From contig CAMNAP010000002.1 in the NCBI GenBank assembly GCA_946531445.1, forward strand, positions 7,887-71,886: a stretch of DNA of 64,000 nucleotides, written 5' to 3'. The stretch's first letter is position 1, and every line of letters starts with the position of its first letter. Under the pieces are notes generated by a model. The model ran no database searches and had not been told where the DNA came from. It saw nothing but the letters and a program-made list of their open reading frames with translations. This DNA is from an uncultured Clostridia bacterium (GTDB taxonomy: Bacteria > Bacillota > Clostridia > Oscillospirales > Acutalibacteraceae). Position numbers and translations under genes: made by a program. Shown piece by piece: positions 2,145-31,856 of this stretch.

Positions 2145-3068
2145 ATGAGACATTTACTTGACACAACTGATTTAACCCTCAGCGAAATTGACGATATGAT
2201 AGCGCTTGCTATGGACATTATTGAAAACGGTGAAAAATACGCCCATATCTGCGAGGGTAAAAAGCTTGCAACGCTCTTTTTTGAGCCAAGTACAAGAACA
2301 CGCCTTTCGTTTGAAAGCGCTATGTATGAGCTCGGCGGCCACGTCCTCGGCTTCAGCGAGGCGGCTTCCTCGTCTGCCGCAAAGGGCGAAAGCGTGTCCG
2401 ACACAATAAGAATGGTGTCGTGCTATGCTGATATTGTCGCAATGCGCCACCCCCTTGAGGGTGCGCCGAGAGTGGCTGTAAACAAAACGCTTATCCCGAT
2501 TATTAATGCAGGCGACGGCGGCCACGCACATCCGACTCAGACTCTTACCGACCTTCTCACAATCTATCGCGAAAAGGGAACGTTTGACAATCTTACAATC
2601 GGTCTTTGCGGCGATTTAAAATTCGGACGTACCGTTCATTCGCTTATAAAAGCAATGTGCAGATATAAAAATGTCCGCTTTGTTCTCATCTCACCTAAGG
2701 AACTTCAGGTGCCCGATTATATCATCACCGATGTTCTTGAGCCGAGCGGCGCAAAATACGTTCAGGTGGAAAATATGGAGGCTGTAATGCCCGAGCTTGA
2801 CATTCTTTATATGACGCGAATTCAGCGCGAGCGCTTCTTCTCTGAGGAGGAATACTTAAAGCACAAGGACGCGTTTATCCTTGATATGTCCAAGCTTGAA
2901 AATGCAAAGGAAAGCCTTACAATTATGCACCCGCTTCCGAGAGTTAACGAAATCAGCACCGATGTAGACGAGGACAAAAGAGCTAAATACTTTGAGCAGG
3001 CGCTCAACGGTAAATATATAAGAATGGCGCTCATTATCACGCTTCTTAAGTGGGGAGGACAGTTATGA
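2145..3068 (+). CDS. pyrB: Aspartate carbamoyltransferase catalytic subunit
   Basis: [27 protein letters not shown]. Confidence 0.97.
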
Positions 3069-3487
3069 ATATAGACGCAATTGAAAACGGTTATGTTATA
3101 GACCATATCCCCGCAGGAAGAGGAATGGATGTTTACAAGGTTTTAAAGCTCGGTAAGCTCTCCTGTCAGGTCGCAATAATAACTAACGCGAAATCACTTA
3201 AAAGCGGTGCAAAGGATATAATTAAAATCAACGAGCTGATTAATCTTGACCTTGACACCGTAGCTTTTATAGCTCCCGACGCAACTGTAAATATAATCAA
3301 AAACAGCAAGCGGATTGAAAAGAAAAAGCTTTCTCTTCCCGATAAGCTTGTTAACGTTATTAAATGTCCCAATCCGCGCTGTATCTGTAACAACGAAAGC
3401 GTTGACCATATTTTCAGACTTACAGACGCAAAAGGAACATACAGATGTATTTACTGCGAAACACGTCAAAATAAATTCAACAACTAA
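3065..3487 (+). CDS. pyrI: Aspartate carbamoyltransferase regulatory subunit
   Basis: GYVIDHI and Zn ligands CPNPRC...CIYC. The ATG at 3065 follows a GGAGGA RBS and overlaps the pyrB stop. Confidence 0.93.
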
Positions 3488-3515
3488 GGGGCGACCTATT
3501 TACTTAGGGTGCCCC

Positions 3516-3544
3516 AAAGGGCTGTTTTTTAAACAGCCTTTTTT
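3516..3544 (+). terminator. Intrinsic terminator of the pyr operon
   Basis: GGCTGTTT-ttt-AAACAGCC followed by a T-run. A second GC-rich hairpin lies just upstream (3488-3515). Confidence 0.8.
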
Positions 3545-3549
3545 ATTTC

Positions 3550-3578
3550 TTGACAAACGGAATTATTTTACTTAAAAT
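3550..3578 (+). promoter_or_regulatory. sigmaA-type promoter for the aquaporin gene
   Basis: TTGACA-17 bp-TAAAAT. Confidence 0.75.
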
Positions 3579-3626
3579 GAAATTACAGGAATATGAAATC
3601 TGTAAAATTTTAAAGGAGTGGATTTT

Positions 3627-4361
3627 ATGAAAAAGGAAATCAAAAAGCTTTTAGCCGAGCTTATAGGAACCTGCGTTCTTGTAACTCTCGGCTGCGGTAC
3701 GGCAATGCTTGTAGGCTGCGATGCCAAAAACGGATGCGGCTATCTTTTAACCGCTCTTGCTTTCGGTCTTGTAATCGTTGGTATGGCTTACTGTATCGGC
3801 AACATCTCAGGCTGCCACATAAACCCTGCGGTATCCCTCGGTGTTCTCATAAGCGGCGGAATGTCGTTCGGAGAATTCCTCGGCTATGTAGTATCCCAGA
3901 TTATGGGCGCTCTCGTAGGAACGGGTATCCTCGCGCTCATTTTCGGAAAAGGACAGCTTGTTGATATGACAGGCGGCTTCGGCGCAAACGGACTTGCAGG
4001 AGTAAACGGCTCACACGTTGCAGGCCTTGCAACCGAAATGGTGCTTACTTATATCTTTGTTCTTACAATTCTCGGCGTAACCTCAAAGAAAGCGGAGCAC
4101 GGCTCATTCGGCGGCCTCATCATCGGCTTAACGCTTACTCTCGTTCACATCTTCGGTATCGGCTTAACGGGAACCTCTGTTAATCCCGCGCGTTCAATAG
4201 CTCCCGCTGTTGCGGCATTCGTTAACGGTAACGCTGACCCGATTAAAGACCTCTGGGTATTCATTGTAGGCCCGTTTGTTGGCGCTGCCTTTGCCGCTCT
4301 TACATATATGTTTCTTGAAAGCGACGAGGTAAGAGAAATAAAGAAAAAGGCTAAGAAATAA
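3627..4361 (+). CDS. aqpZ: MIP family channel, aquaporin Z-like
   Basis: Two NPA boxes (SGCHINPAVS, GTSVNPARS). His/Thr/Arg filter context (LVHIFGIGLTGTSVNPAR) matches water-type aquaporins. ATG 3627 follows AAGGAG. Confidence 0.88.
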   Translation: MKKEIKKLLAELIGTCVLVTLGCGTAMLVGCDAKNGCGYLLTALAFGLVIVGMAYCIGNISGCHINPAVSLGVLISGGMSFGEFLGYVVSQIMGALVGTGILALIFGKGQLVDMTGGFGANGLAGVNGSHVAGLATEMVLTYIFVLTILGVTSKKAEHGSFGGLIIGLTLTLVHIFGIGLTGTSVNPARSIAPAVAAFVNGNADPIKDLWVFIVGPFVGAAFAALTYMFLESDEVREIKKKAKK

Positions 4362-4369
4362 GAAAATTT

Positions 4370-4394
4370 AAGAGCGGCTATGCCGCTCTTTTTT
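4370..4394 (+). terminator. Intrinsic terminator between the aquaporin and MFS genes
   Basis: AAGAGCGGC-tat-GCCGCTCTT-TTTT. Confidence 0.7.
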
Positions 4395-4405
4395 GAGGAA
4401 TAGAA

Positions 4406-5860
4406 ATGAAGTACATTACAAAAAAAGAGAAGTCAAATTACTATTTCGGTCTTGTCGGTCAGAATATGGTTTACTCGCTCATAGGCGGCTCTTTTTTTAC
4501 TTACTTTCTGACCGATATTGCACTCTTTCCTGCAATCGCCGTATCCGTAATGCTTGTAGTTATGAAGGTGTGGGACGGTGTAAACGACCCGATTGTAGGC
4601 TCATTTGTAGATAAGCATACCTTCAAAAGCGGGGAAAAGCTGCGTCCGTTTTTACGTTATACGCCGCTACCGGTTGGCGCGTTTACCGTTTTGATGTTTA
4701 TCGTTTTTTCAACCGACGATAAGCTTCTCTGGCTGAGAATATCATATTTCGTAATTATGTACATCTGCTGGGATTTAAGCTACACCTTCCAGGACGTTGC
4801 AATCTGGGGTATTACCGCGTGCGTATCGCCTGAATCCGATGAGCGTGACCGCTTTGTTCAGTGGGCGAGAACGTTCGGCTCAATCGCTTACGGCGTTTTC
4901 AGTATGGGAATACCGATGATTCTTGAAATGGTAGTAAACGCAACGGGCTCCTCGTGGAAGCTTATGACGGTTGTGTTTGCGCTTATCTTCGGGCTCGGCG
5001 GTTCAATGATGTCGCTTCGCTGCTATCAGGCACAGGAGCGTATAAGAGTAAATGTAAACGACCAGCAGGAGAGTCTAAGAGAAAGCTTCTCGCTTCTCTT
5101 CAAAAACAAGATGATGCTTCTTGTAACCGCCGCAAATCTCTGCGGTGCGCTCGGCTTCGGCGCAAACCTTGTAACGTATTTCTTCAAATATGAAATCCCT
5201 AAGGATTTCATCGGCAACGGCGAGGGAATATGGGGTATGATAGGCGCGCTCGGTCTTACAACAATTTACTACGCAATCACAGGCGCACCGGGTTTTATAG
5301 GAATGATGCTTGCCGACAAGATGAAGCAGTGGCTCGGCGGATACAAAAATGTTCTTATCTTTATGCAGGTTTGCAATATAGTTACAAGAGCAATCGCTTA
5401 CTTTATCGGCTTTGAGGGCAAAAACCTCTGGATTGGTCTTATCATCGTCGGTATAGGCTGTATCCCCAACGGGGCGACCTCAATTGCCCAGACCTCAATT
5501 TTCTGCGACAGTATTGACTATATGGAGTATAAAACGGGCAAGAGAACAGAGGGTATTACCTTCTCAATTCAGACCTCGTTTACAAAGATTTCAAGCGGTA
5601 TTACAGCGGGGCTTTCTGCTCTCGCGCTGCACGTTCTCAAGTATAACGCTATAGACGATTCTGCCGCAGTTTTCGTAGGAACACAGAGCGCCGCATTTGA
5701 TAAGTGGATATGGCCGCTTGTTATGCTCACTCCTGCAATTGCAAGCGTGCTGTTTATAATCCCGCTTCTGTTTATCCGCTACACTCCCGAAGAGCGTAAA
5801 AAGGTAGAGGCAACGCTTAAAGCCCGCCGCGAAGCGGAAAACGATTTTGTAACTGAATAA
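4406..5860 (+). CDS. MFS glycoside-pentoside-hexuronide (MelB/GPH-like) transporter
   Basis: WDGVNDPIVG, KLRPFL and DSIDYMEYKTGKRTEG motifs; about 12 hydrophobic segments. Confidence 0.88.
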   Translation: MKYITKKEKSNYYFGLVGQNMVYSLIGGSFFTYFLTDIALFPAIAVSVMLVVMKVWDGVNDPIVGSFVDKHTFKSGEKLRPFLRYTPLPVGAFTVLMFIVFSTDDKLLWLRISYFVIMYICWDLSYTFQDVAIWGITACVSPESDERDRFVQWARTFGSIAYGVFSMGIPMILEMVVNATGSSWKLMTVVFALIFGLGGSMMSLRCYQAQERIRVNVNDQQESLRESFSLLFKNKMMLLVTAANLCGALGFGANLVTYFFKYEIPKDFIGNGEGIWGMIGALGLTTIYYAITGAPGFIGMMLADKMKQWLGGYKNVLIFMQVCNIVTRAIAYFIGFEGKNLWIGLIIVGIGCIPNGATSIAQTSIFCDSIDYMEYKTGKRTEGITFSIQTSFTKISSGITAGLSALALHVLKYNAIDDSAAVFVGTQSAAFDKWIWPLVMLTPAIASVLFIIPLLFIRYTPEERKKVEATLKARREAENDFVTE

Positions 5861-8220: not shown

Positions 8221-11200
8221 ATGAATAAATTCGGCAAGGCCTTTATTGCGCTTATTGTCTGCTTTTCGCTTGCAATACCGCTTGTTGTAAGCTTAAATTA
8301 TTCTGCTTCTCCCGCCGACTTTTCCGGGGAAAAATATCTTTCTGATATAGCCGAGATTTACAGAGAGTACGACGGAGATTTATCAAAAAAGGATAAAGAT
8401 GACCCGCTTGCTCTTAACCGAATTGTTGTAAGTGATTATAACGGTAAGAAGTACGGCTGTGTCAAGCGCGCCTGGGATACTAAGCATAAAATCGGCGTGC
8501 TTCAGTACGAAACGCGAAAGGACGCCGAAGAGGCTATTAAAGCAGTAAGACGCGACGGACTTGTTGCCGAGGGCGATGGCATTGCATATTTTGACAATGA
8601 AATCAAAGAAACACCCGAAGCTATTGTAAACGAAGCACCCGCCCTCGCAAGTGAGAAGGGAACTCTTTCTCCTTCCTCAAGCGGGTTCCTCGGCACTAAG
8701 CAGTATATTGAAAAGCTCAACGCCGAAGAAAAGGATGAGGTCGTAGTTGCAATTGTTGATACGGGCGTTATGTACGAGCATACTGCAATAGCAGACCGCT
8801 TCTGTTCAACGGGCGTTGACCTTTCGTCAGATAAAGCGCCCGACGCTCATTACGATACCGATATGGTCGGCGAATACTATGACCACGCAACTATGGTTTC
8901 AGGTGTTATTGCCGATAATACGCCTGATAACGTAAAAATATTTCCCTATAAGGTCGTTGCCTTCGGAGCAAGCGGAGCGGCGGCAAGCGCAATAATGAAC
9001 GGCCTTTACGAGGCGGTAGACAGCAACGCCAAGGTTATCAGCGTTTCGCTTTCAACAAACGGCTGCTACAGCTATATTGAAGAGGCCATCACAAACGGAC
9101 GTCAGAAGGGAATCTGTGTATGCGCAAGCGCGGGCAACAGCTCAAAGGTTGTAACGGGAATGTATCCCGCCTGCTGTACATATGCAATTACCGTTTCGGC
9201 GCTTAATACGGACAATACTACTATCGCCCCGTTTTCTAACTACGGCGAAAACATAGATTTTACAGCGCCCGGAAGAAGAATACACACAACTGCTCCCGTC
9301 AATGGGGACAGCGGATATGTTTACGGCTCGGGTACGTCGTTTTCAACTCCTTATATTTCGGCGTGTTGCGCCTGCATAAAATCCGATTATCCCGATATGC
9401 CGCGCGACGACGTGTATTCTGCGCTTTGCGATTTTGCAACCGACCTCGGTGACGAGGGCTACGATATTTACTACGGTAACGGCGCTCCGAATCTCAGCAA
9501 TATGGTTTATACCGACGGAGAAAACTACAGCTTTTCAATTCCCGAAAATACGCTTGAGATTTACACTGACGCCGATTATACTGCCGACACTCAGCCGTGG
9601 AAAAAGTACGCAACGGTTATAACAGACGTTACGGTTGACCCATCGGTTGAAAGACTCGCAAACTACGTGTTCTATAAAATGCCCAATGCGCAGTTTAATA
9701 TGCGCGAAAGCTACAACAGCATAGGCTCTTACGCTTTTTACGGCTGTACACAGCTTGACGGTTATACCTGCACGATTGACGTTGAAGAAATAGGGCAGGG
9801 TGCGTTCGGCGGAATTGAGGGCTTTGTTCTCAGCGGCTACAGAAACACGCCTGCTGAAAGCTATGCGCTAAGCGAAAATATAACCTTTAACGCGCTCGGC
9901 TGTAAACACAGCTACAAGCACGTTGTGTATGACCCGACAAAAACGAGCGAGGGTTATACGCTTTATACCTGTACGGTCTGCGGCGAGCAGTATGTCGGAA
10001 AATATATTGAGCCGACTCCCGTTGAAACGGGTAAATGCGGCGATAACCTGACGTATACCTACTTTGACACGGGCAGGCTGACAATTGAGGGCAGCGGTGA
10101 TATGTACGATTATATGAACACTCCCGCCCCGTGGGCTGATTATAAAGACAGCATTATGGTGCTTCAGGTTAAGGAGGGCGTAGGCGATGTTTCACCGTTC
10201 GCGTTTTACGGCTGCACCTCGCTTTCACGTTTCTTTATAAGCGACGGAAATTCTTATTACTACGATGACGACGAGTATAATCTCGTAAGAAAATCAGACG
10301 GCGCCCTGCTTCTCGCAATTATGGGCACTCAGAATTCGCCCTATACGGTAAGAGAAAGAATTAACAGCTTTAATTCTACAGCGTTTATTATATGCAATCC
10401 GTCGGCAGTTGTCGGAAACGGATACACAACAAACGACGGTATAGTTTACAATTCAGACGGTGATATTGCTATGGCTTTGCCGTCATATAATAAGAGCGGG
10501 TTTGAATTTGGCGCCAACTGTGACGTTAACGAATACGCGTTTATCTATTGCCCGGGACTTCTTAAAATCAGCGGAGACTATATACGCATAAACGTAGGTC
10601 AGTACGGCTTCGGCTATTACTACGACGGTACAATGAACAAACAGAATGCGCTATTTGTAACTAATGCTTCAAGCGGACTTTATCAGTACGCCTCTGATAA
10701 CGGCTTTGCCGTAGACCTCGGCGTTACGGGTAAGTGCGGCGACGATATACTCTGGCGATACAATGAAGAGGAAAGCTCGCTGACTCTTACGGGCAGCGGC
10801 GATATGTATACGTTTGAGAGCGAAGAGCTTGTACCGTGGAAGGAATATATCCCAACTCTTAAAAAGGCAGTAATTGCCGATTCAATAACCTCTCTTTCGC
10901 CGTATTCCTTCAATAAGGCAACAAAGCTCAGCGACCTTACGCTCCCGCTTTCAATTGAAGCGCCTAAGGATATTAACACATGGAACGGCTGTAACGCTAT
11001 TAAGAAGCTGACTCTTACGCTCGGTACGGGAAGAACGGACGACTACGTTGAAGCAGACGGAACAGAGCTTTATAAGTTCACTCCGTGGTTTATTTCAAAG
11101 AGCAGCATAACCTCGTTCAGCCTTGACGAGAATGTTAAATACATAACCTCTGAGGCGTTCAGAAACTGTACCTGTATAAAATCGCTTAAATTCAACTGTA

Positions 11201-11910
11201 TTGAAAAAATTGAAAGACGCGCCTTTGTTGCGTGTACCTCGCTGACGGAGATAACCAATTACTGCAGGAATACCGTTTATGACGATTTATCGATATTCTC
11301 CTATCAGTTCGGTACTGCGGCAGGCGGCTACTACGCAAATAAAACTCTTAAAGGCTATTCCGACTCAACTTCAAAGGATTTCTGCACAGCTAATCCAAAG
11401 ATTAATTTTGAGTCAATAGGCTGCGGACACTCAAGAAGCACAAGCTACCTTAGAGATGAAGCGAGAGATGAATTTATCACAGACGTTATCTATCACTGCG
11501 ACGACTGCGGTAATGAGTTCGTTTACTCGTATTACGATTCGGGAAGCGAGCTTACGCTCAGCGTTTTTACCAAAAAGGGAATGACTGTTGAAAATGCAGA
11601 GATATACCTTGACGGCGAGCTTTTCGGTGTAACGGACAGCAAGGGCGCTGTAAGGGGCAAGCTCCCGATGGGAAGCTATCCGCTTGAAATGAAGGTAAAC
11701 GGAATAAGCGTATTTGAAAACACTCTTACTCTTTCTTCAAATACCGTTAACGCTTCACTCCGTTTCCAGTACGCAAACTATGTAAAGGACGGCGCAATTA
11801 ACGGAAAGGACTACGCCTACAGCCTGCGCTGCGGCTTTGGCGACGGCGACCTCTTCGACTACGGAAAAATAAACGCAGACTATAACAGGATAATCTACGA
11901 TGAAAACTAA
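8221..11910 (+). CDS. Secreted S8 (subtilisin-like) serine protease with BspA-type LRR modules and a C-terminal dockerin/EF-hand-like motif
   Basis: Signal peptide; triad VAIVDTG / DHATMVSG / GTSFSTP; oxyanion ASAGN; two GKCG..LT..GSGDMY LRR caps; C-terminal NYVKDGAINGKDYA. Confidence 0.88.
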   Translation: MNKFGKAFIALIVCFSLAIPLVVSLNYSASPADFSGEKYLSDIAEIYREYDGDLSKKDKDDPLALNRIVVSDYNGKKYGCVKRAWDTKHKIGVLQYETRKDAEEAIKAVRRDGLVAEGDGIAYFDNEIKETPEAIVNEAPALASEKGTLSPSSSGFLGTKQYIEKLNAEEKDEVVVAIVDTGVMYEHTAIADRFCSTGVDLSSDKAPDAHYDTDMVGEYYDHATMVSGVIADNTPDNVKIFPYKVVAFGASGAAASAIMNGLYEAVDSNAKVISVSLSTNGCYSYIEEAITNGRQKGICVCASAGNSSKVVTGMYPACCTYAITVSALNTDNTTIAPFSNYGENIDFTAPGRRIHTTAPVNGDSGYVYGSGTSFSTPYISACCACIKSDYPDMPRDDVYSALCDFATDLGDEGYDIYYGNGAPNLSNMVYTDGENYSFSIPENTLEIYTDADYTADTQPWKKYATVITDVTVDPSVERLANYVFYKMPNAQFNMRESYNSIGSYAFYGCTQLDGYTCTIDVEEIGQGAFGGIEGFVLSGYRNTPAESYALSENITFNALGCKHSYKHVVYDPTKTSEGYTLYTCTVCGEQYVGKYIEPTPVETGKCGDNLTYTYFDTGRLTIEGSGDMYDYMNTPAPWADYKDSIMVLQVKEGVGDVSPFAFYGCTSLSRFFISDGNSYYYDDDEYNLVRKSDGALLLAIMGTQNSPYTVRERINSFNSTAFIICNPSAVVGNGYTTNDGIVYNSDGDIAMALPSYNKSGFEFGANCDVNEYAFIYCPGLLKISGDYIRINVGQYGFGYYYDGTMNKQNALFVTNASSGLYQYASDNGFAVDLGVTGKCGDDILWRYNEEESSLTLTGSGDMYTFESEELVPWKEYIPTLKKAVIADSITSLSPYSFNKATKLSDLTLPLSIEAPKDINTWNGCNAIKKLTLTLGTGRTDDYVEADGTELYKFTPWFISKSSITSFSLDENVKYITSEAFRNCTCIKSLKFNCIEKIERRAFVACTSLTEITNYCRNTVYDDLSIFSYQFGTAAGGYYANKTLKGYSDSTSKDFCTANPKINFESIGCGHSRSTSYLRDEARDEFITDVIYHCDDCGNEFVYSYYDSGSELTLSVFTKKGMTVENAEIYLDGELFGVTDSKGAVRGKLPMGSYPLEMKVNGISVFENTLTLSSNTVNASLRFQYANYVKDGAINGKDYAYSLRCGFGDGDLFDYGKINADYNRIIYDEN

Positions 11911-13898: not shown

Positions 13899-13930
13899 AA
13901 GAGAGTGTTTCGGTACTCTCTTATTTTTTT
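13899..13930 (+). terminator. Intrinsic terminator
   Basis: AAGAGAGTG-tttcgg-TACTCTCTT followed by ATTTTTTT. Confidence 0.75.
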
Positions 13931-13931
13931 A

Positions 13932-13960
13932 TTGTAATAATAAATTAGTTATGCTAAAAT
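13932..13960 (+). promoter_or_regulatory. sigmaA-type promoter for the PI-PLC gene
   Basis: TTGTAA-17 bp-TAAAAT with TG extension. Confidence 0.65.
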
Positions 13961-14000
13961 AAAAGTGAGTTATTGGCAGAATGCTTTTACAGGTGATTTA

Positions 14001-17000
14001 ATGAAAAGGCTCATATCTCTTTTAGCAATAATTTCAATAATTTTTACTATGGCTGTTCCGATTAGTGCAGAGGCTTCCTCTCAGTACGAAACCCAAACGG
14101 CTTTATCCTCTGTTGCAACCAACAGCTGGATGAGTGCTATCAGAGGCGAAACAAGGCTTACTGAAATTACTATTCCGGGAACTCACGATTCGTGCGCAAG
14201 AAAATTCAGCCAGTCGTATGTAACAAGCACGGCAAAGTGTCAGAGTCTGAATATTACCGAACAGCTCAACGCGGGCGTGCGTTTTCTTGACGTAAGATGT
14301 GAGTGTGATTCCTCAACGCTTTCGGTTAAAACGGTTCACGGCTCCGCCGACTGCTGGAACGGGGATGACTATTACTATCTTGATTTTGTTTTTCAGGACG
14401 TTTACAACTGGCTTGCTTCCCACCCGAGCGAAACCGTTTTAGTTTCAATTAAAGAGGACGACGGCGACGTAGGCGCGGCAACGTTTACAAAGGCAATTTA
14501 CGAATATATTCACGGCTACGGTCAGGGCAAATACTTCTACGGCGAAAGCTACAATTACCGCTCGCAGTGGTATCTTTCAAAGGCGGTTCCTACACTTGAC
14601 GAGGTAAGGGGAAAGTGCGTTCTTATGAACCGCTTTGACCAGGTTATAGAAACCTCGGGCTCAGGTGTTGACGCGGCTGAATCGGGACAGAAGGTAAAAT
14701 GGCTTGACTATGACAACGGCAGCTATATTGATCCGCCGTACGTTAACCTGAAAAACAGCTATTCTGATTTAACCTTCCACGTTCAGGATTATTATAAGTG
14801 GCACACAGACGACAAGATTACCGCAACACAGTATATGTTAAATCTCGGCCATTACAGAGGCGAATACTATTTCAACTTCTCCTCTACGGTATCCGATTCG
14901 CTTATTCCTAACCCTGAAAACCTTGCGGGAACGGTGAACGCCGCTTACCCGAATTTTACTTACACAAAAAACAAGCCGTCGGGCGTTTTCGCTATGGACT
15001 TTGCAAACGCCGATTTGTGCAGATATATTATTCTTAACAACGAGGCGGTTTCAAATATCGTTACGGGTACAGACGGCAATGTTACCTATACCCTTAACAG
15101 AAAAACGGGCGTGCTTCACTTGAGCGGAAACGGCGCTATGAATAACTACGCCTACACCTCCGCAAACGGCGTAAACGGTATGGGCTCAACTGCGCCGTGG
15201 GGCGACCAGCTCAAGAATTCGGTATTTGACGGTCAGTACAACTCAGACCTCATTACAAGCATTGTAGTTGACGAGGGCATAACCTCAATAGGTAACTACG
15301 CCTTTTACGGCTATGATAACGTTACAAGTGTGTCGCTCCCGTCAACAATTACCTCAATCGGCGAGGGCGCGTTTACAAAGTGCGCTCGCCTTACAACGCT
15401 TGATATAAGAAACACGTCCGTTCAGTCTATCGGAAGTTATGCGTTTAAGGACTGTACGGCGCTTACTGTTTTCAACACCGCAGACAGCGTGAGCAGTATT
15501 AACCAAAATGCCTTTACAAACGCTAACAGCGTTACAATGTACGGCTCTGCGGGTATCTATTCTCAGACGTGGGCAAACGAAAACAATGTGCCTTATGTTG
15601 TAAAGGATTTCAACTCCTACAGCGTAGACGTCAAGGCGGCGAATACCGTAAGGGAAAGTGAAAATCCGTTTGCAGACAAAGACCTTTCAAAAGGTGTTAC
15701 AATCAGCTTTTCAAAATACTGCAACGACGACAGAGGCTGGAATTCCTCGCTGATTAATTTTTCAACGGGTAAAAACAGAGATAACCGCTATTTCATAATT
15801 ATGGCTAACGGAACAATCCTCTTTAACGACGGAAACGGCGGAAGCGCGGGAAATAACGGCTGTTACTTTGACATAAACGCCGAGAGCGCAACAAACACAA
15901 CCTCGGCGCGCTGGGTGGATATTGACCTTACAATTTACAAAAACAACGCCTCGCAGCATATGCTGAAATATTACGTTGACGGCGCGCTTGTAAGAACGTT
16001 TAACCTCAGTGAAACCTGCGCGGGCGGTTACCCCGCAGGAGTCAGCGGAAACGACGGAATTTTCTCCTTCCTTTCGAGCGGCGACATAAACCTTTACTAC
16101 GGCGCTTCGTTTTCCGTTTATCCGACTATGGCGGGTACGGCTGAGGCGTATCTTGATACGGCTGAGTTTTACACATATGCTAAGTCTGACAGCGAGCTTA
16201 CGTCTGCTACTGATTACAGCTATCTCAACACGTTTGAAAACGGGCTCGGCGGCACTGCTGTTACGGGACGCGCCGACAACGGAGTTTACGTTCACCTTGA
16301 TGAAACGAATAACGCGGGAAGGGTAAACACCGCATATTTCCCGTACACTCAAAACGGAGGTAATGAAACAAACTACATCGCTACGGGGGTAAGCCCGTTT
16401 GCAAACTGTAATACGTCGGACGGGCTGAGCATAAGCTTCTGGCACAGAATAAACGGCAATTACTGGGGCAACCTTGAAGCGCTCACTATAGCAAAGGGTG
16501 AAATCGGCGAGTGTAAGTATTTCACCTTCGGTTCAGACGGATATATCCGCTTCAATAACGGCAATGGCGGAAGCGATACAAGTCTTTCGTCGGCAGGGCT
16601 GTATTTTGACTACACAACCGCTGAGAGCGCAATAAGAAATAAAGAGTGGCAATTCATAACGCTTGACATACTTGACGATTTTCATTTCAGACTCTACGTT
16701 AACGGCGAGCTTGTTAAAAACATTGCCGTAAGCGGAACTGATGAATATAACGCAGCAGGCGGACTTATCTCTTTCCTTACAAGCCCTGACGCTAAGCTTT
16801 ATCTCGGCTCTTACACGCCGTACTGGGGAACGTGTACGCTGTCCCTTGACAATGTTTACTGTCACGCGAGGGCGCTGACAGACGGCGAGGCGTATTCGCT
16901 GTATATGTCCGAAACCGAGGGAGCACAGGCGGATTTTGCAGAGAGTTTTGAAGATAACTTTGACTTGTATTCCGGTCAGTGCGAAATTCTATCGCAGTAT

Positions 17001-18329
17001 GAGGGACGGCAGGGAGTTTTATATATTCCCGCTGAGGGCGCCGATTCGCAGTATACGGTGAGCGTTAACGGAAATACGGTTTCCGACTCTTCGGCAATTG
17101 CCGCCGAAAGTGAGGTTACCGTAAGCTATACGGGAACAAAGAATGTCAGCAGATGGCTTCTTGTGAGCAACGCGACAAACGAGGTAATCAGCTCTTCTCA
17201 GGGCGCTTCGTCATTTACCTTTACACTAAGAGAAAGCTCATACGTTTACTGTATTCTTGAAAGCGAGAGGGCGGCTGACCTTTCGGCTTACTATGCGGCG
17301 GTTGAAAGCGCAGGTAAATACAGCGCCGACGATTATTCAGCAGAATCGTATCAGAATCTTACCGATACGATAGACTTATACAGCGGCCTTGCCTCCTCGT
17401 CGCCCACTCAGGCTCAGGCTGACGTGGCAACATACGATATTCTTACGGCTATAAGCAACCTTGTGCCGTATCTCTACCTTAACGTAGGCGCAAGCGGCGG
17501 TAGCGCCGAGGCGTCAATCGGCGGCGAAACTGTTGGGCAGGGACGTCACTCGCTTCTTTTCGGAACGGAAATCACGCTGATTGCAACTCCCGATGAAGGC
17601 TATACCTTCAAGGGCTGGTATGAAACAAAGACAAAGCGCATATTCTCATCTGACAGCACGTTTACATTTCTGCTCACTTCAAATACGGATTTTGAGGCGC
17701 TGTTTACAAACGGCGAAACGGCAACGCTTTGTTTCAGAAATCACTCTTCGCAGATTCAGAGCAGGATTACAAAAAGCATTGAAGAGTGGAACGAATACAC
17801 ATCTCTTTCTTCGCTTCTTCCCGCTGTTCCGTACCGCTTTGGCTACACTGCAGGGGAGTGGGTGAACACCGACTCTGCGCTCGCGCTTCTTCAAAACGGC
17901 TCAGACGCCGACCTGTATCCCGAATACACTGAGGGCCAGTATTCGCTTCCTGCAATGCCGGATACAAGCAGCGGCGTTCCCGTTGCGACTCTCACGTATT
18001 ATCACGATGTCGGCGCGCATACAGCTTCTTATATTATGGCGCTCGGCGTACCCGACGGTTGCAGGCTTGAATCGGTAGGCATTGCGCTTTACTACAAAAA
18101 AGCTTCATCCTTTGACCCGAGAGAGCTTGAGCTTACAATCAACAACAAGCTGACGACCTCAAAGTTTGAGCCGTCCCCCGCAAGCGATTACTATACGCTT
18201 AACGTTTCGGGCTTTACTTCAAACAACAACTGGGCGCTTCGCGGATATGCTGTTTATTATGATGAAAACGGAGCGCTCAAAACGGTATATTCAAACCAGA
18301 TTAATATAATTGACAGGGAAAGCGTCTGA
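14001..18329 (+). CDS. Secreted multidomain phosphatidylinositol-specific phospholipase C (PI-PLC X + BspA LRR + two LamG/ConA-like + FIVAR-like + InlB-B-repeat-like + C-terminal domain)
   Basis: Signal peptide from ATG 14001 (AGGTGA RBS). PI-PLC motifs ITIPGTHDS, QLNAGVRFLDVR, TVHG, VSIKE, MDF; LRR SIGNYAFYG...SIGEGAF; LamG-like SISFWHRI...WQFITL...LYVNGEL; PDEGYTFKGWY repeat. Confidence 0.85.
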   Translation: MKRLISLLAIISIIFTMAVPISAEASSQYETQTALSSVATNSWMSAIRGETRLTEITIPGTHDSCARKFSQSYVTSTAKCQSLNITEQLNAGVRFLDVRCECDSSTLSVKTVHGSADCWNGDDYYYLDFVFQDVYNWLASHPSETVLVSIKEDDGDVGAATFTKAIYEYIHGYGQGKYFYGESYNYRSQWYLSKAVPTLDEVRGKCVLMNRFDQVIETSGSGVDAAESGQKVKWLDYDNGSYIDPPYVNLKNSYSDLTFHVQDYYKWHTDDKITATQYMLNLGHYRGEYYFNFSSTVSDSLIPNPENLAGTVNAAYPNFTYTKNKPSGVFAMDFANADLCRYIILNNEAVSNIVTGTDGNVTYTLNRKTGVLHLSGNGAMNNYAYTSANGVNGMGSTAPWGDQLKNSVFDGQYNSDLITSIVVDEGITSIGNYAFYGYDNVTSVSLPSTITSIGEGAFTKCARLTTLDIRNTSVQSIGSYAFKDCTALTVFNTADSVSSINQNAFTNANSVTMYGSAGIYSQTWANENNVPYVVKDFNSYSVDVKAANTVRESENPFADKDLSKGVTISFSKYCNDDRGWNSSLINFSTGKNRDNRYFIIMANGTILFNDGNGGSAGNNGCYFDINAESATNTTSARWVDIDLTIYKNNASQHMLKYYVDGALVRTFNLSETCAGGYPAGVSGNDGIFSFLSSGDINLYYGASFSVYPTMAGTAEAYLDTAEFYTYAKSDSELTSATDYSYLNTFENGLGGTAVTGRADNGVYVHLDETNNAGRVNTAYFPYTQNGGNETNYIATGVSPFANCNTSDGLSISFWHRINGNYWGNLEALTIAKGEIGECKYFTFGSDGYIRFNNGNGGSDTSLSSAGLYFDYTTAESAIRNKEWQFITLDILDDFHFRLYVNGELVKNIAVSGTDEYNAAGGLISFLTSPDAKLYLGSYTPYWGTCTLSLDNVYCHARALTDGEAYSLYMSETEGAQADFAESFEDNFDLYSGQCEILSQYEGRQGVLYIPAEGADSQYTVSVNGNTVSDSSAIAAESEVTVSYTGTKNVSRWLLVSNATNEVISSSQGASSFTFTLRESSYVYCILESERAADLSAYYAAVESAGKYSADDYSAESYQNLTDTIDLYSGLASSSPTQAQADVATYDILTAISNLVPYLYLNVGASGGSAEASIGGETVGQGRHSLLFGTEITLIATPDEGYTFKGWYETKTKRIFSSDSTFTFLLTSNTDFEALFTNGETATLCFRNHSSQIQSRITKSIEEWNEYTSLSSLLPAVPYRFGYTAGEWVNTDSALALLQNGSDADLYPEYTEGQYSLPAMPDTSSGVPVATLTYYHDVGAHTASYIMALGVPDGCRLESVGIALYYKKASSFDPRELELTINNKLTTSKFEPSPASDYYTLNVSGFTSNNNWALRGYAVYYDENGALKTVYSNQINIIDRESV

Positions 18330-18634
18330 TGAATTCATTTGAAAAAATTTATGAAACGGTGAAACGGATACCGTACGGAAAGGTTGCAACCTACGGACAG
18401 ATTGCAATGCTTTCGGGTAATCCTAACTGGAGCAGGGTTGTGGGATACGCCCTCCACGTTAATCCAGACCCCGACTCAATTCCGTGTTTTCGCGTTGTTA
18501 ACCGTTTCGGCGAACCGTCAAGTGCCTTTGCATTCGGCGGAAAGAATACGCAGATTCTGCTTCTTGAGGGCGAGGGAGTGGAATTTGTTGACGGCAGAGT
18601 GAATATGGAAAAGTTCCTTTGGGACGGTAAATAA
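18329..18634 (+). CDS. MGMT/alkyltransferase-like DNA-binding protein (C-terminal domain only)
   Basis: IPYGKVATYGQIA...RVVGYAL...PCFRVV; TGATG overlap with the upstream gene. Confidence 0.85.
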   Translation: MNSFEKIYETVKRIPYGKVATYGQIAMLSGNPNWSRVVGYALHVNPDPDSIPCFRVVNRFGEPSSAFAFGGKNTQILLLEGEGVEFVDGRVNMEKFLWDGK

Positions 18635-31290: not shown

Positions 31291-31856
31291 TGATTAAAGA
31301 CGGAATGAAAAGACAGAATAACGAGTTTTATGAGCTTCACATTGCAGGGCTTACAAGACAGCTTCAGAAGTTTGCAGTTTCAGATTCGCTTGACATCGCC
31401 GCATTTATTCTTTTCGGCGACGTAGAGCTTGTTGAACGCTGTGCCCAGGAGCTTTTAAAGAAGGTTCCCGAATTTGATTACATCATTACACCCGAGGCAA
31501 AGTCTATTCCGCTTGCATATGAGATGAGCAGACTGAGCGGAAAGAAATACATCGTTGCGCGCAAGGGCGTTAAGGTTTATATGGACAGACCTGAAAAGGT
31601 TGAAGTAACCTCAATTACTACTCAGAGAGTACAGACGCTTTACCTCGGCCACGAGGATGGCGATTTGCTTACGGGAAAGAGAGTGCTTATTGTTGACGAC
31701 GTTATTTCAACGGGCGAAAGCCTTAAGGCAGTTCAGCTTCTTGTTGAAAGATTTGACGGAAATATTGTTGCTTCCTGTGCGCCTCTTGCAGAGGGCGACG
31801 CTGCAGACAGAGACGATATTGTATATCTTGAAAAGCTTCCGCTTTTCTTTAAATAA
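31290..31856 (+). CDS. Purine phosphoribosyltransferase family protein (Apt-like)
   Basis: PEAKSIPLA, VARK, VLIVDDVISTGES. Confidence 0.85.
   Translation: MIKDGMKRQNNEFYELHIAGLTRQLQKFAVSDSLDIAAFILFGDVELVERCAQELLKKVPEFDYIITPEAKSIPLAYEMSRLSGKKYIVARKGVKVYMDRPEKVEVTSITTQRVQTLYLGHEDGDLLTGKRVLIVDDVISTGESLKAVQLLVERFDGNIVASCAPLAEGDAADRDDIVYLEKLPLFFK

What the first reader, a model, noticed from the sequence alone, without database searches (positions are those of the whole stretch)
14001..18329. 1,442-aa surface phosphatidylinositol phospholipase C carrying LRR and lectin-like modules
Seen: a signal peptide, then a PI-PLC X domain that keeps both catalytic-His contexts (PGTHDS, TVHG), the Arg (FLDVR) and the MDF motif. 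After it come BspA LRRs, two LamG/ConA-like beta-sandwiches, a helical FIVAR-like unit and an InlB-B-like repeat. Known: characterised bacterial PI-PLCs (Bacillus, Listeria, Staphylococcus) are about 300-aa single-domain enzymes that cleave PI and GPI anchors. Inference: a commensal tethers a PI-PLC via adhesion and glycan-binding modules, either to release host GPI-anchored proteins or to harvest inositol/diacylglycerol from dietary or host membranes. I do not recognise this architecture as characterised.
Basis: partly seen in the sequence, partly recalled or inferred. Interest (0 to 1): 0.7.

Follow-up and report, generated by a model that had tools for sequence, protein, structure and literature searches.

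The report
Secreted multidomain PI-phospholipase C, ruminant gut
This gene encodes a real, exported 1,442-residue enzyme with a complete inositol-lipid-cutting head (PI-PLC) joined to binding modules and a shared tail; it belongs to an unstudied family confined to one genus of ruminant-gut Clostridia, so it is a new variant of a known enzyme, not a new kind.

Summary
Window 14001-18329 (+) is one intact ORF with its own promoter-like site, RBS and Sec signal peptide. Residues 36-352 are a full Bacillus/Staphylococcus-type PI-PLC barrel (PDB E 4e-20; Foldseek TM 0.79). All five catalytic residues and the aligned inositol-pocket residues are invariant in 30 homologues. After the barrel come a BspA LRR, two LamG/ConA-like sandwiches, a small beta domain, a three-helix unit, an InlB-B-like repeat and an unannotated 196-aa end.

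- **Distribution:** close homologues occur only in ruminant-gut MAGs of the window's own genus. 12 of 61 species carry one, in at least four chromosomal contexts.
- **Core versus tail:** the head-LRR-LamG core is conserved (57-71% identity); the tail is not (30-46%).
- **Tail:** it is a portable cassette, also found on class-3 lipases, a CBM96 glycoside-hydrolase-annotated protein, VWA/LRR proteins and cohesin-bearing proteins. Sister PI-PLCs carry a dockerin in its place. I therefore read it as a retention or address module. The protein has no classical anchor.
- **Inositol use:** the genome encodes iolG/D/E/C, but IolD, the one iol gene surveyed, is core to the genus, so the link is not specific.

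Best reading: a displayed, metal-independent PI-PLC that harvests inositol lipids or GPI anchors from rumen eukaryotes, feed or Bacteroidota. Substrate and role are untested. Moderate interest.

The parts
13899..13930 (+). Terminator-like hairpin plus T-run ending the upstream alpha/beta-hydrolase gene
   Evidence: 10-bp stem, T-rich tail; sequence
13932..13960 (+). Promoter-like site (TTGTAA-17-TAAAAT with TG extension)
   Evidence: a consensus match only
13991..13996 (+). Ribosome-binding site AGGTGA, 4 nt before the ATG
   Evidence: read directly
14001..18329 (+). Complete CDS, 1442 aa plus stop
   Evidence: 100% identical database entry P0002
14001..14075 (+). Sec signal peptide (aa 1-25, cleavage after AEA); the only hydrophobic segment in the protein
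14106..15056 (+). PI-PLC catalytic (beta-alpha) barrel, aa 36-352. Catalytic residues H62, D63, R99, H113, D333. Aligned pocket residues K151, R211, D263, Y265. Four invariant Cys at 65, 80, 100, 118.
   Evidence: residue roles from PMC9572076 and bioRxiv 10.64898/2026.07.28.741319
15057..15620 (+). BspA-type leucine-rich repeat domain with N-terminal cap, aa 353-540
   Evidence: LRR_5, E 2e-23; 4fs7, 4gt6; pLDDT above 90
15621..16235 (+). LamG/ConA-like beta-sandwich 1, aa 541-745 (invariant FNDGNGG loop at 608-614)
   Evidence: No Pfam hit of its own. The equivalent stretch of homologue P0010 hits Laminin_G_3.
16236..16925 (+). LamG/ConA-like beta-sandwich 2, aa 746-975 (FNNGNGG loop at 851-857)
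   Evidence: Laminin_G_3 36.4 bits, above cut-off 27.6
16926..17276 (+). Low-confidence linker (aa 976-1014) plus a small beta-sandwich (about 1015-1090); the least conserved part (30% identity)
17277..17465 (+). Three-helix unit (FIVAR-like in shape only), aa 1093-1155; first element of the tail region
   Evidence: helices; no FIVAR hit; recurs in the C79 and C1 proteins of the same genome
17466..17738 (+). InlB B-repeat-like domain (Flg_new_2), aa 1156-1246
   Evidence: E 1.4e-9
17739..18326 (+). Unannotated 196-aa C-terminal beta module ending ...ARGY..YYD..G.L.T.YSNQINI. With Flg_new_2 it forms a portable tail found on lipases, a CBM96 protein, VWA/LRR proteins and cohesin-bearing proteins.

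Best explanation
The gene encodes a Sec-exported, metal-independent phosphatidylinositol-specific phospholipase C of the Bacillus/Staphylococcus type.

Mechanism of the head. H62 would act as general base and H113 as general acid, R99 would hold the phosphate, and D63 and D333 would position the histidines. The enzyme would cleave the glycerol-phosphate (or ceramide-phosphate) bond of inositol lipids by attack of the inositol 2-OH. That releases inositol cyclic phosphate or inositol 1-phosphate, or a whole GPI-anchored glycoprotein, and leaves diacylglycerol behind.

Accessory parts. The catalytic head forms one conserved unit with a BspA LRR and two LamG lectin-like domains, which I infer bring the enzyme to the surface that carries the substrate. 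The faster-evolving tail (Flg_new_2 plus the 196-aa end, preceded here by a three-helix unit) is a portable address module. I infer that it keeps the enzyme on the producer's surface or in a surface assembly. Sister enzymes do the same job with a dockerin.

Likely role. Nutrient harvest in the ruminant gut: inositol for the iol pathway, and lipid or glycoprotein release from protozoal, fungal, plant or Bacteroidota membranes.

What is shown: the ORF, signal peptide, fold, residue conservation, domain set, distribution, tail sharing and iol genes. What is inferred: activity, substrate, the targeting role of LRR/LamG, the retention role of the tail, and the nutritional purpose.
For: - **Fold and sequence:** S. 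aureus PI-PLC matches at E 4e-20 over the whole barrel. The AF2 model has pLDDT 89 and matches 4f2u at E 2.7e-19, TM 0.79.
- **Catalytic residues:** H62, D63, R99, H113 and D333 align with His32, Asp33, Arg69, His82 and Asp274. K151, R211, D263 and Y265 align with the inositol pocket. All are invariant in 30 homologues of 49-72% identity (roles). An Arg at the Arg69 position marks the metal-independent type.
- **Export:** a signal peptide is the only hydrophobic segment.
- **Conservation gradient:** PI-PLC 71%, LRR 63%, LamG 60% and 57%, tail 30-46%.
- **Recurrent pairing:** PI-PLC plus Laminin_G_3 recurs in clades only 34-38% identical.
- **Tail:** it recurs on two other proteins of the same genome, one with a clear N-terminal signal peptide. 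Elsewhere it sits on Lipase_3, CBM96, VWA/LRR and cohesin-bearing proteins. Sister PI-PLCs have a dockerin in its place.
- **Ecology:** all 31 close loci in the 185,579 representative genomes scanned are from ruminant gut MAGs. The family is confined to the window's genus.
- **Inositol use:** iolG, iolD and iolE form a cluster, and iolC and an IMPase-family protein are present. One homologue lies beside a GDPD and a sugar transporter.
Against: - No activity data exist for any member.
- PF00388 only just passes its cut-off (24.2 against 23.1 bits).
- The helix-B membrane-inserting Trp of the Bacillus and S. aureus enzymes is Thr77 here, so interfacial binding may differ.
- No classical anchor is present, and the own genome has no Pfam cohesin. 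Tail-mediated retention is therefore only inferred.
- There is no conserved operon partner. The gene sits in at least four contexts.
- IolD is in 55 of 61 genus members but the long PI-PLC in only 12 of 61, so there is no specific co-occurrence.
- The iolB match is below its cut-off.
- Model coordinates could not be inspected, so the geometry of the His pair rests on alignment and overall TM-score.
Confidence: 0.6

Rival explanations
1. Host-directed GPI-anchor sheddase or colonisation factor. The enzyme is tethered by its adhesion modules to the gut epithelium and strips host GPI-anchored proteins.
For: The closest solved relatives, the S. aureus and Bacillus enzymes, are known GPI-anchor cleavers (background knowledge; similarity). 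LRR and lectin-like modules are typical of host-adhesion proteins. Some relatives come from ileum and omasum samples.
Against: Most relatives come from rumen or digesta metagenomes. Some sister enzymes carry dockerins, a module typical of feed-degrading surface assemblies. The same tail sits on lipases and a CBM96 glycoside-hydrolase-annotated protein. Nothing in the locus suggests virulence or adhesion.
Confidence: 0.12
2. Inter-microbial weapon or anti-grazing factor. The LRR/LamG head recognises rumen ciliates, anaerobic fungi or inositol-lipid-bearing Bacteroidota (Prevotella), and the PI-PLC damages their membrane or strips their GPI coat. The benefit is competition or defence, not nutrition.
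For: Distribution is restricted to the ruminant gut. The gene is accessory and patchy within the genus, with up to three paralogues of this clade in one genome, as is usual for interaction genes. [quoted passage not shown]
Against: There is no immunity-like or secretion-system partner gene, and neighbours are housekeeping genes. The core is under strong purifying conservation and shows no sign of arms-race diversification. There is no direct evidence of toxicity.
Confidence: 0.13
3. The PI-PLC-fold head acts on a non-lipid or non-PI phosphodiester, for example a phosphodiester-linked glycan or a wall polymer. The LamG domains would act as carbohydrate-binding modules for that polymer.
For: The helix-B interfacial Trp is missing. 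Four family-specific invariant cysteines lie next to catalytic residues. Two lectin-like domains are tightly conserved with the head. The tail is shared with a CBM96 glycoside-hydrolase-annotated protein.
Against: The positions aligned with the inositol pocket (K151, R211, D263, Y265) and the phosphate-binding Arg are all invariant. In fungal relatives, a change of specificity goes with loss of Arg69 and Lys115, and that has not happened here.
Confidence: 0.1
4. A non-catalytic adhesin in which the PI-PLC fold serves only as an inositol-phosphate or lipid-binding module of a BspA-like surface protein.
For: NCBI names the relatives only 'leucine-rich repeat protein'. About three quarters of the protein consists of binding-type modules.
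Against: Every catalytic residue is invariant across 30 homologues, and the head is the most conserved part, with 36% invariant columns.
Confidence: 0.03

Closest known systems
Staphylococcus aureus PI-PLC (PDB 3v16, 4f2t, 4f2u) and Bacillus cereus/thuringiensis PI-PLC (1ptd, 1gym, 3ea1)
   Same: The same single (beta-alpha)-barrel fold (TM 0.73-0.79), 21-28% identity. The same His/Asp/Arg/His/Asp catalytic set and aligned inositol-pocket residues. Secreted by a Gram-positive bacterium. An Arg occupies the place that a Ca2+ ion takes in other PI-PLC types.
   Different: Those enzymes are about 300-aa single-domain proteins. This one carries about 1,090 further residues. The helix-B Trp (Trp47 in Bacillus, Trp45 in S. 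aureus) is Thr here. Four family-specific invariant cysteines and a 5-residue insertion after the general-acid His are present. The producers are ruminant-gut anaerobes, not pathogens.
Listeria monocytogenes PlcA (PDB 1aod, 2plc)
   Same: A bacterial PI-PLC barrel with the same catalytic residues (E 2.5e-13 by sequence; Foldseek E 1.7e-13).
   Different: PlcA is a 274-289-aa single-domain enzyme used for vacuole escape. Similarity covers mainly the X-half of the barrel (query residues 36-211).
Uncharacterised lectin-tailed secreted PI-PLCs of gut bacteria, such as distant clades with Laminin_G_3, aBig_2, FIVAR and Flg_new (P0132, P0137, P0142)
   Same: An N-terminal PI-PLC head followed by ConA/LamG-type and Ig-like modules, sometimes a true FIVAR and Listeria-Bacteroides repeats. 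The design logic is the same.
   Different: Only 34-38% identical in the head. They have no BspA LRR between head and LamG, different tails, and are not restricted to the window's genus.
Dockerin-bearing (cellulosome-type) enzymes
   Same: Sister proteins (P0014, P0027, P0030) have the same PI-PLC-LRR-LamG core ending in a type I dockerin. The tail of the window protein also ends cohesin-bearing proteins.
   Different: The window protein has no dockerin, and its genome has no Pfam cohesin. I found no paper describing a phospholipase as a cellulosome component.
BspA-family LRR surface proteins (PDB 4fs7, 4gt6; Treponema LrrA/TpLRR)
   Same: LRR_5 repeats with 30-40% local identity.
   Different: Those are stand-alone binding proteins. 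Here the LRR is an internal module of an enzyme.

Membership tests
Bacterial metal-independent PI-PLC (Pfam PI-PLC-X PF00388 / PI-PLC_X PF26146) | Profile score above the curated cut-off | tested here: met
   PF00388 scores 24.2 bits against a cut-off of 23.1 and 28.5 bits in the genome scan. The identical protein P0002 has a precomputed PF26146 hit. phmmer to 4f2t gives E 4e-20.
Bacterial metal-independent PI-PLC | Single imperfect (beta-alpha) barrel of about 300 aa, superposable on 1ptd or 3v16 | tested here: met
   AF2 model with pLDDT 89. Foldseek E 2.7e-19, TM 0.79 normalised to the target, over 335 columns.
Bacterial metal-independent PI-PLC | Catalytic His32/His82 pair with Asp33, Arg69 and Asp274 (B. 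cereus numbering) | tested here: met
   H62, H113, D63, R99 and D333 align with these residues through the S. aureus alignment (numbering offset checked with Trp45/Trp47). All are invariant in 30 homologues. The three-dimensional geometry could not be inspected.
Bacterial metal-independent PI-PLC | myo-Inositol pocket (Lys115, Arg163, Asp198, Tyr200) | tested here: met
   K151, R211, D263 and Y265 sit at the aligned positions and are invariant. Lys115 and Tyr200 are named. The roles of Arg163 and Asp198 rest on my own knowledge of the B. cereus structure.
Bacterial metal-independent PI-PLC | Interfacial aromatic residues (helix-B Trp47, rim-loop Trp242) | tested here: not met
   The helix-B Trp position is T77 here (Ile in most homologues). 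The rim loop reads SLIPNPENL, without a Trp. This is a feature of the Bacillus and S. aureus subgroup and does not define the family.
Bacterial metal-independent PI-PLC | Hydrolysis of PI or GPI through a cyclic inositol phosphate | not testable with these tools
   Needs an enzyme assay.
BspA-type LRR (Pfam LRR_5) | Profile score above the cut-off | tested here: met
   83 bits against 27.7, residues 413-511.
Laminin_G_3 / ConA-like lectin superfamily | Profile score above the cut-off, and a jelly-roll sandwich fold | tested here: met
   Domain 2 alone scores 36.4 bits against 27.6. Domain 1 has no Pfam hit but is 30% identical to domain 2. The tandem matches neurexin LNS2-3 at E 2e-11. Sugar binding was not tested.
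FIVAR (PF07554) | Profile match | tested here: not met
   No hit at E up to 10. Only a three-helix shape is seen in the model.
Flg_new_2 / InlB B-repeat | Profile score above the cut-off | tested here: met
   38.2 bits against 23.6, residues 1171-1237.
Covalently or classically wall-anchored Gram-positive surface proteins (LPXTG, SLH, choline-binding or LysM type) | Sorting motif plus C-terminal hydrophobic segment, or a known wall-binding repeat | tested here: not met
   No LPxTG-like motif, no hydrophobic segment other than the signal peptide, and no such Pfam domain.
Dockerin-bearing cellulosomal component | Type I dockerin | tested here: not met
   Absent here. Present in sister proteins P0014, P0027 and P0030.

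The most novel reading that the evidence does not exclude
This may be a ruminant-gut-specific family of displayed, target-guided inositol-lipid phospholipases. The invariant PI-PLC-LRR-LamG unit would recognise and cut the surface of other rumen organisms, such as the GPI coats of ciliates or fungi, or the inositol lipids of Prevotella. The Flg_new_2 plus 196-aa tail, preceded in this genome by a three-helix unit, would be a previously unrecognised cell-surface anchoring module of this lineage. It would be interchangeable with a dockerin and would also serve as the anchor of cohesin-bearing scaffold proteins. Lipolytic enzymes (this PI-PLC and a class-3 lipase) would then be part of a cellulosome-like surface apparatus.
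Probability: 0.2. Interest if true: 0.65.

Novelty: new variant of a known kind. Interest (0 to 1): 0.4.

Why it matters
Every biochemically studied bacterial PI-PLC is a small single-domain enzyme from a pathogen or soil bacillus. This family shows the same catalytic machine built into a large modular protein in abundant ruminant-gut anaerobes. Some sister versions carry a dockerin, and the tail is shared with lipases and cohesin proteins.

If the inferences hold, three things follow:
- A route by which gut Clostridia obtain inositol and lipid from eukaryotic or Bacteroidota membranes.
- A candidate new surface-anchoring module for an uncultured lineage.
- A ready source of GPI-releasing enzymes with built-in targeting domains.

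The catalytic chemistry is expected, and lectin-tailed PI-PLCs are already common in sequence databases. The interest is therefore moderate, and a simple enzyme assay would settle most of it.

Tried and rejected
- **Operon logic:** neighbours are an S8-LRR protease, a 2-thiouracil desulfurase, an alpha/beta hydrolase, an alkyltransferase-like DNA-binding protein, a GH2 beta-galactosidase, ComEC and holA. This context is kept only in the two nearest species. Other species place the gene in at least three other contexts. I therefore rejected any conserved partner. A GDPD next door in one species is a single case.
- **Recent foreign acquisition:** gene GC is 0.478, neighbours 0.46-0.47 and genome 0.436. 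There is no clear anomaly.
- **Co-occurrence of the inositol pathway with the PI-PLC:** rejected as specific evidence. IolD is in 55 of 61 genus members, the long PI-PLC in 12 of 61.
- **Short PI-PLC paralogue:** the roughly 300-aa PI-PLC-like ORF of genus mates is only about 30% identical. The one I read (G278) has no signal peptide. The own genome lacks it. It is not the same function.
- **C-terminal half against PDB:** only generic Ig/FN3-like matches at E about 1e-3. phmmer of the LamG pair against PDB found nothing.
- **Lipase link:** the own genome's Lipase_3 ORF (C42) is a separate 468-aa reading frame without the tail. The tail-bearing C79 fragment runs off its contig, so its head is unknown.
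- **Cohesin in the own genome:** none found.
- **Literature:** no paper on LRR-, dockerin- or rumen-linked PI-PLCs. A lead that lecithin media were used to isolate Eubacterium coprostanoligenes was not used, because the genus could not be named.

Full report
**1. The object**

Window 14001-18329 (+) is a single uninterrupted ORF of 1442 codons. The mechanical ORF list begins at GTG 13965. I take ATG 14001 as the start for three reasons. It is preceded by AGGTGA (13991-13996). It gives a textbook Sec signal peptide (MKR, hydrophobic core, AEA|SS after residue 25). It also matches the N-termini of all homologues. A terminator-like hairpin (13899-13930) closes the upstream gene, and a promoter-like site (13932-13960) follows. 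The next ORF, a 101-aa alkyltransferase-like DNA-binding protein, starts on the last base of the stop codon. An identical protein is already in the public collection (P0002).

**2. The catalytic head**

- Pfam PI-PLC-X only just passes its cut-off (24.2 bits against 23.1). The newer Pfam family PF26146 is recorded for the identical database copy P0002 and is named 'PI-PLC_X' on a homologue.
- phmmer against PDB aligns residues 39-335 with the whole S. aureus PI-PLC at E 4e-20. Listeria PlcA and the Bacillus enzymes follow.
- An AlphaFold2 model of residues 25-980, built on 55 homologues, has mean pLDDT 89. Its barrel matches S. aureus PI-PLC at E 2.7e-19 with TM 0.79 normalised to the target. 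It matches the Bacillus enzymes at TM 0.73-0.77.
- I checked the alignment numbering with S. aureus Trp45, which corresponds to Bacillus Trp47. On that register H62, D63, R99, H113 and D333 correspond to His32, Asp33, Arg69, His82 and Asp274. These are the five catalytic residues named for the Bacillus enzyme (PMC9572076; bioRxiv 10.64898/2026.07.28.741319).
- K151, R211, D263 and Y265 sit at the positions of Lys115, Arg163, Asp198 and Tyr200. All nine residues are invariant in 30 full-length homologues of 49-72% identity.
- The Arg at the Arg69 position marks the metal-independent type, which works through a cyclic inositol phosphate. That assignment is established knowledge of the family.

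Differences from the studied enzymes:
- The helix-B membrane-inserting Trp is Thr77.
- There is a 5-residue insertion after the general-acid His.
- Four cysteines (65, 80, 100, 118), two of them adjacent to catalytic residues, are invariant in the family and absent from the S. aureus enzyme. I could not open the model coordinates, so their pairing and the exact His-His geometry remain unchecked.

**3. The rest of the protein**

- **LRR (353-540):** a BspA-type LRR (LRR_5, E 2e-23).
- **LamG pair (541-745 and 746-975):** two jelly-roll sandwiches. The pair matches tandem neurexin LNS domains (E 2e-11) and the lectin domains of trypanosome sialidases. Domain 2 alone passes Pfam Laminin_G_3 (36.4 bits against 27.6). 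Domain 1 is a 30%-identical duplicate of it. Both carry an invariant F-N-[DN]-G-N-G-G loop.
- **C-terminal third:** a second model (residues 976-1442, pLDDT 85) shows a disordered linker, then a small beta-sandwich at about 1015-1090. After that come three helices (1095-1152), the Flg_new_2 repeat (Pfam E 1.4e-9) and about 200 residues of beta structure. That last stretch has no Pfam, NCBIfam or convincing PDB match.
- **'FIVAR-like':** this is true only as a shape. Pfam FIVAR gives nothing at E 10.
- **No classical anchor:** there is no LPxTG-type motif, no second hydrophobic segment and no known wall-binding repeat.

**4. Family and distribution**

A word-indexed search found more than 60 clusters at 90% identity with the same head-LRR core, in several layouts:
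- about 1,350-1,490-aa proteins collinear with this one;
- 1,150-1,400-aa versions ending in a type I dockerin;
- about 800-aa versions without the LamG pair;
- about 2,300-2,490-aa giants.

An exhaustive HMMER search with the head found 4,620 relatives. About nine clusters at 50% identity belong to this clade. The next relatives drop to 40% identity or less. About a quarter of the top 150 are longer than 600 aa. Several of these distant long forms also combine PI-PLC with Laminin_G_3, aBig_2, FIVAR and Flg_new. So lectin-tailed PI-PLCs are a recurrent design, and this one is not unique.

A scan of 185,579 representative prokaryote genomes found 31 close loci. Every one is from a ruminant gut MAG: red and roe deer, goat, sheep, water buffalo, the RUG and SIG cattle sets, and UBA bins. 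Sample tags of other hits point the same way.

In 201 genomes sampled across 185 genera of the window's own family, only the window's genome has the clade. In 61 species of its own genus, 12 have it. Some genomes hold up to three paralogues of the clade. Public titles call these MAGs 'Eubacterium sp.', 'Oscillospiraceae', 'Ruminococcaceae' or 'Clostridia bacterium'.

**5. Which parts are constrained**

Across 30 collinear homologues, mean identity to the query is:

| Part | Mean identity |
|---|---|
| PI-PLC head | 71% (36% invariant columns) |
| LRR | 63% |
| LamG 1 | 60% |
| LamG 2 | 57% |
| Small beta domain | 30% |
| Tail elements | 45-46% |

The head, LRR and LamG pair therefore behave as one conserved functional unit. 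The tail is exchangeable.

**6. The tail is a portable cassette**

- tblastn of the domains against the whole genome shows the LamG pair is unique to this gene, while the LRR is common.
- The tail elements recur at 37-50% identity at the C-termini of two other proteins of the genome. Flg_new_2 plus the 196-aa end matched in both. The three-helix unit matched by tblastn in C79 only, and the C1 sequence shows a similar stretch by eye.
- One is a 743-aa LRR and Cys-rich protein with an N-terminal signal peptide (C1). The other is a contig-end fragment (C79).
- A database search with the last 196 residues found the same end, always with Flg_new_2, on several protein types. These are very widespread Lipase_3-LRR_4 proteins, a CBM96 protein annotated as a glycoside hydrolase, VWA/LRR proteins, and two cohesin-bearing proteins.
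- The C79 fragment is 42% identical to the tail third of the lipase type.

In cellulosome systems, cohesin-bearing scaffold proteins are the ones that carry the cell-anchoring module. Sister PI-PLCs have a dockerin where this protein has the tail. From these two facts I infer that the tail retains the enzyme on the cell surface or in a surface assembly. This is an inference only. The own genome shows no Pfam cohesin and only two weak dockerin matches.

**7. Context and metabolism**

The neighbours are unrelated housekeeping or secreted-enzyme genes. The arrangement is conserved only in the two nearest species. Elsewhere the gene sits in at least three other contexts, once beside a GDPD and a sugar transporter. 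GC content is unremarkable.

The genome encodes the following, which makes a use for released inositol plausible:
- an iolG-iolD-iolE cluster, all above NCBIfam cut-offs;
- iolC;
- a sub-threshold iolB-like gene;
- an inositol-monophosphatase-family protein.

However, IolD is core to the genus (55 of 61), while the PI-PLC is accessory. The link is compatible with the idea but not specific to it.

Possible substrates in the habitat are the PI and GPI anchors of ciliates, fungi, plants and host cells. [quoted passage not shown]

**8. Verdict**

The enzyme identity is well supported, with about 0.85 confidence that it is an active PI-PLC-type phosphodiesterase. Surface tethering is inferred from the tail and not from the adhesion modules. 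The host-GPI scenario is only one of several.

Compared with known proteins, this is a new architectural variant of the bacterial PI-PLC family. It is restricted to one ruminant-gut genus and has dockerin-bearing siblings. I found no paper describing it. Earlier notes of this scan describe other lectin-tailed PI-PLCs in gut Bacteroidales and judge that design to be common in databases, which agrees.

Interest is moderate (0.4). The chemistry is expected. The shared tail, the dockerin swap and the ruminant restriction are the parts worth an experiment.

Noticed in passing
window 17277-18326; genome contigs C1:31393-32265 and C79:6996-8027: A C-terminal cassette (Flg_new_2 plus an unannotated 196-aa end, preceded here by a three-helix unit) is shared by three proteins of this genome. 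In other genomes it ends Lipase_3, CBM96, VWA/LRR and cohesin-bearing proteins. It is a candidate new anchoring or address module.
   Followed up: partly
window 14193-14354 (Cys65, Cys80, Cys100, Cys118): Four cysteines are invariant in all 30 homologues, and two lie directly after the catalytic Asp63-Ser64 and Arg99. They are absent from the S. aureus enzyme. They could form disulfides or a metal site, which would be odd for a protein exported into a strongly reducing habitat.
   Followed up: no
window 8221-11910: A 1229-aa subtilase (Peptidase_S8) fused to BspA LRR_5 repeats lies about 2 kb upstream. It stays syntenic with the PI-PLC in the two nearest species. Putting LRR_5 on secreted hydrolases looks like a habit of this lineage.
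   Followed up: partly
genome contig C1:1897-5719 (L046): An iolG-iolD-iolE cluster scores above the equivalog cut-offs, and iolC lies on C69. IolD is present in 55 of 61 species of the genus, so myo-inositol catabolism looks like a core trait of this small-genome genus.
   Followed up: partly
L047:6165-7106 (-) and equivalents in most genomes of the genus: A roughly 300-aa PI-PLC-like ORF (about 30% identical, catalytic H/R/H kept) is present in most species of the genus but missing from the window's genome. The copy read here has no signal peptide.
   Followed up: partly
genome contig C1, minus strand (743-aa ORF ending near 31393): A secreted protein with an N-terminal LRR-like region and several repeats of a C..C...C..CG pattern (zinc-ribbon-like), followed by the shared tail. 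Its function is unknown.
   Followed up: no
window 18329-18634: A 101-aa ORF with only the DNA-binding domain of O6-methylguanine methyltransferase (alkyltransferase-like) starts on the last base of the PI-PLC stop codon. It is replaced by other small genes in the syntenic relatives.
   Followed up: no
L012:4982-5845 (-) and 3009-4442 (+): In a red-deer MAG the homologous PI-PLC lies next to a divergently transcribed glycerophosphodiester phosphodiesterase and an MFS_2 sugar transporter. This was seen in one species only.
   Followed up: no
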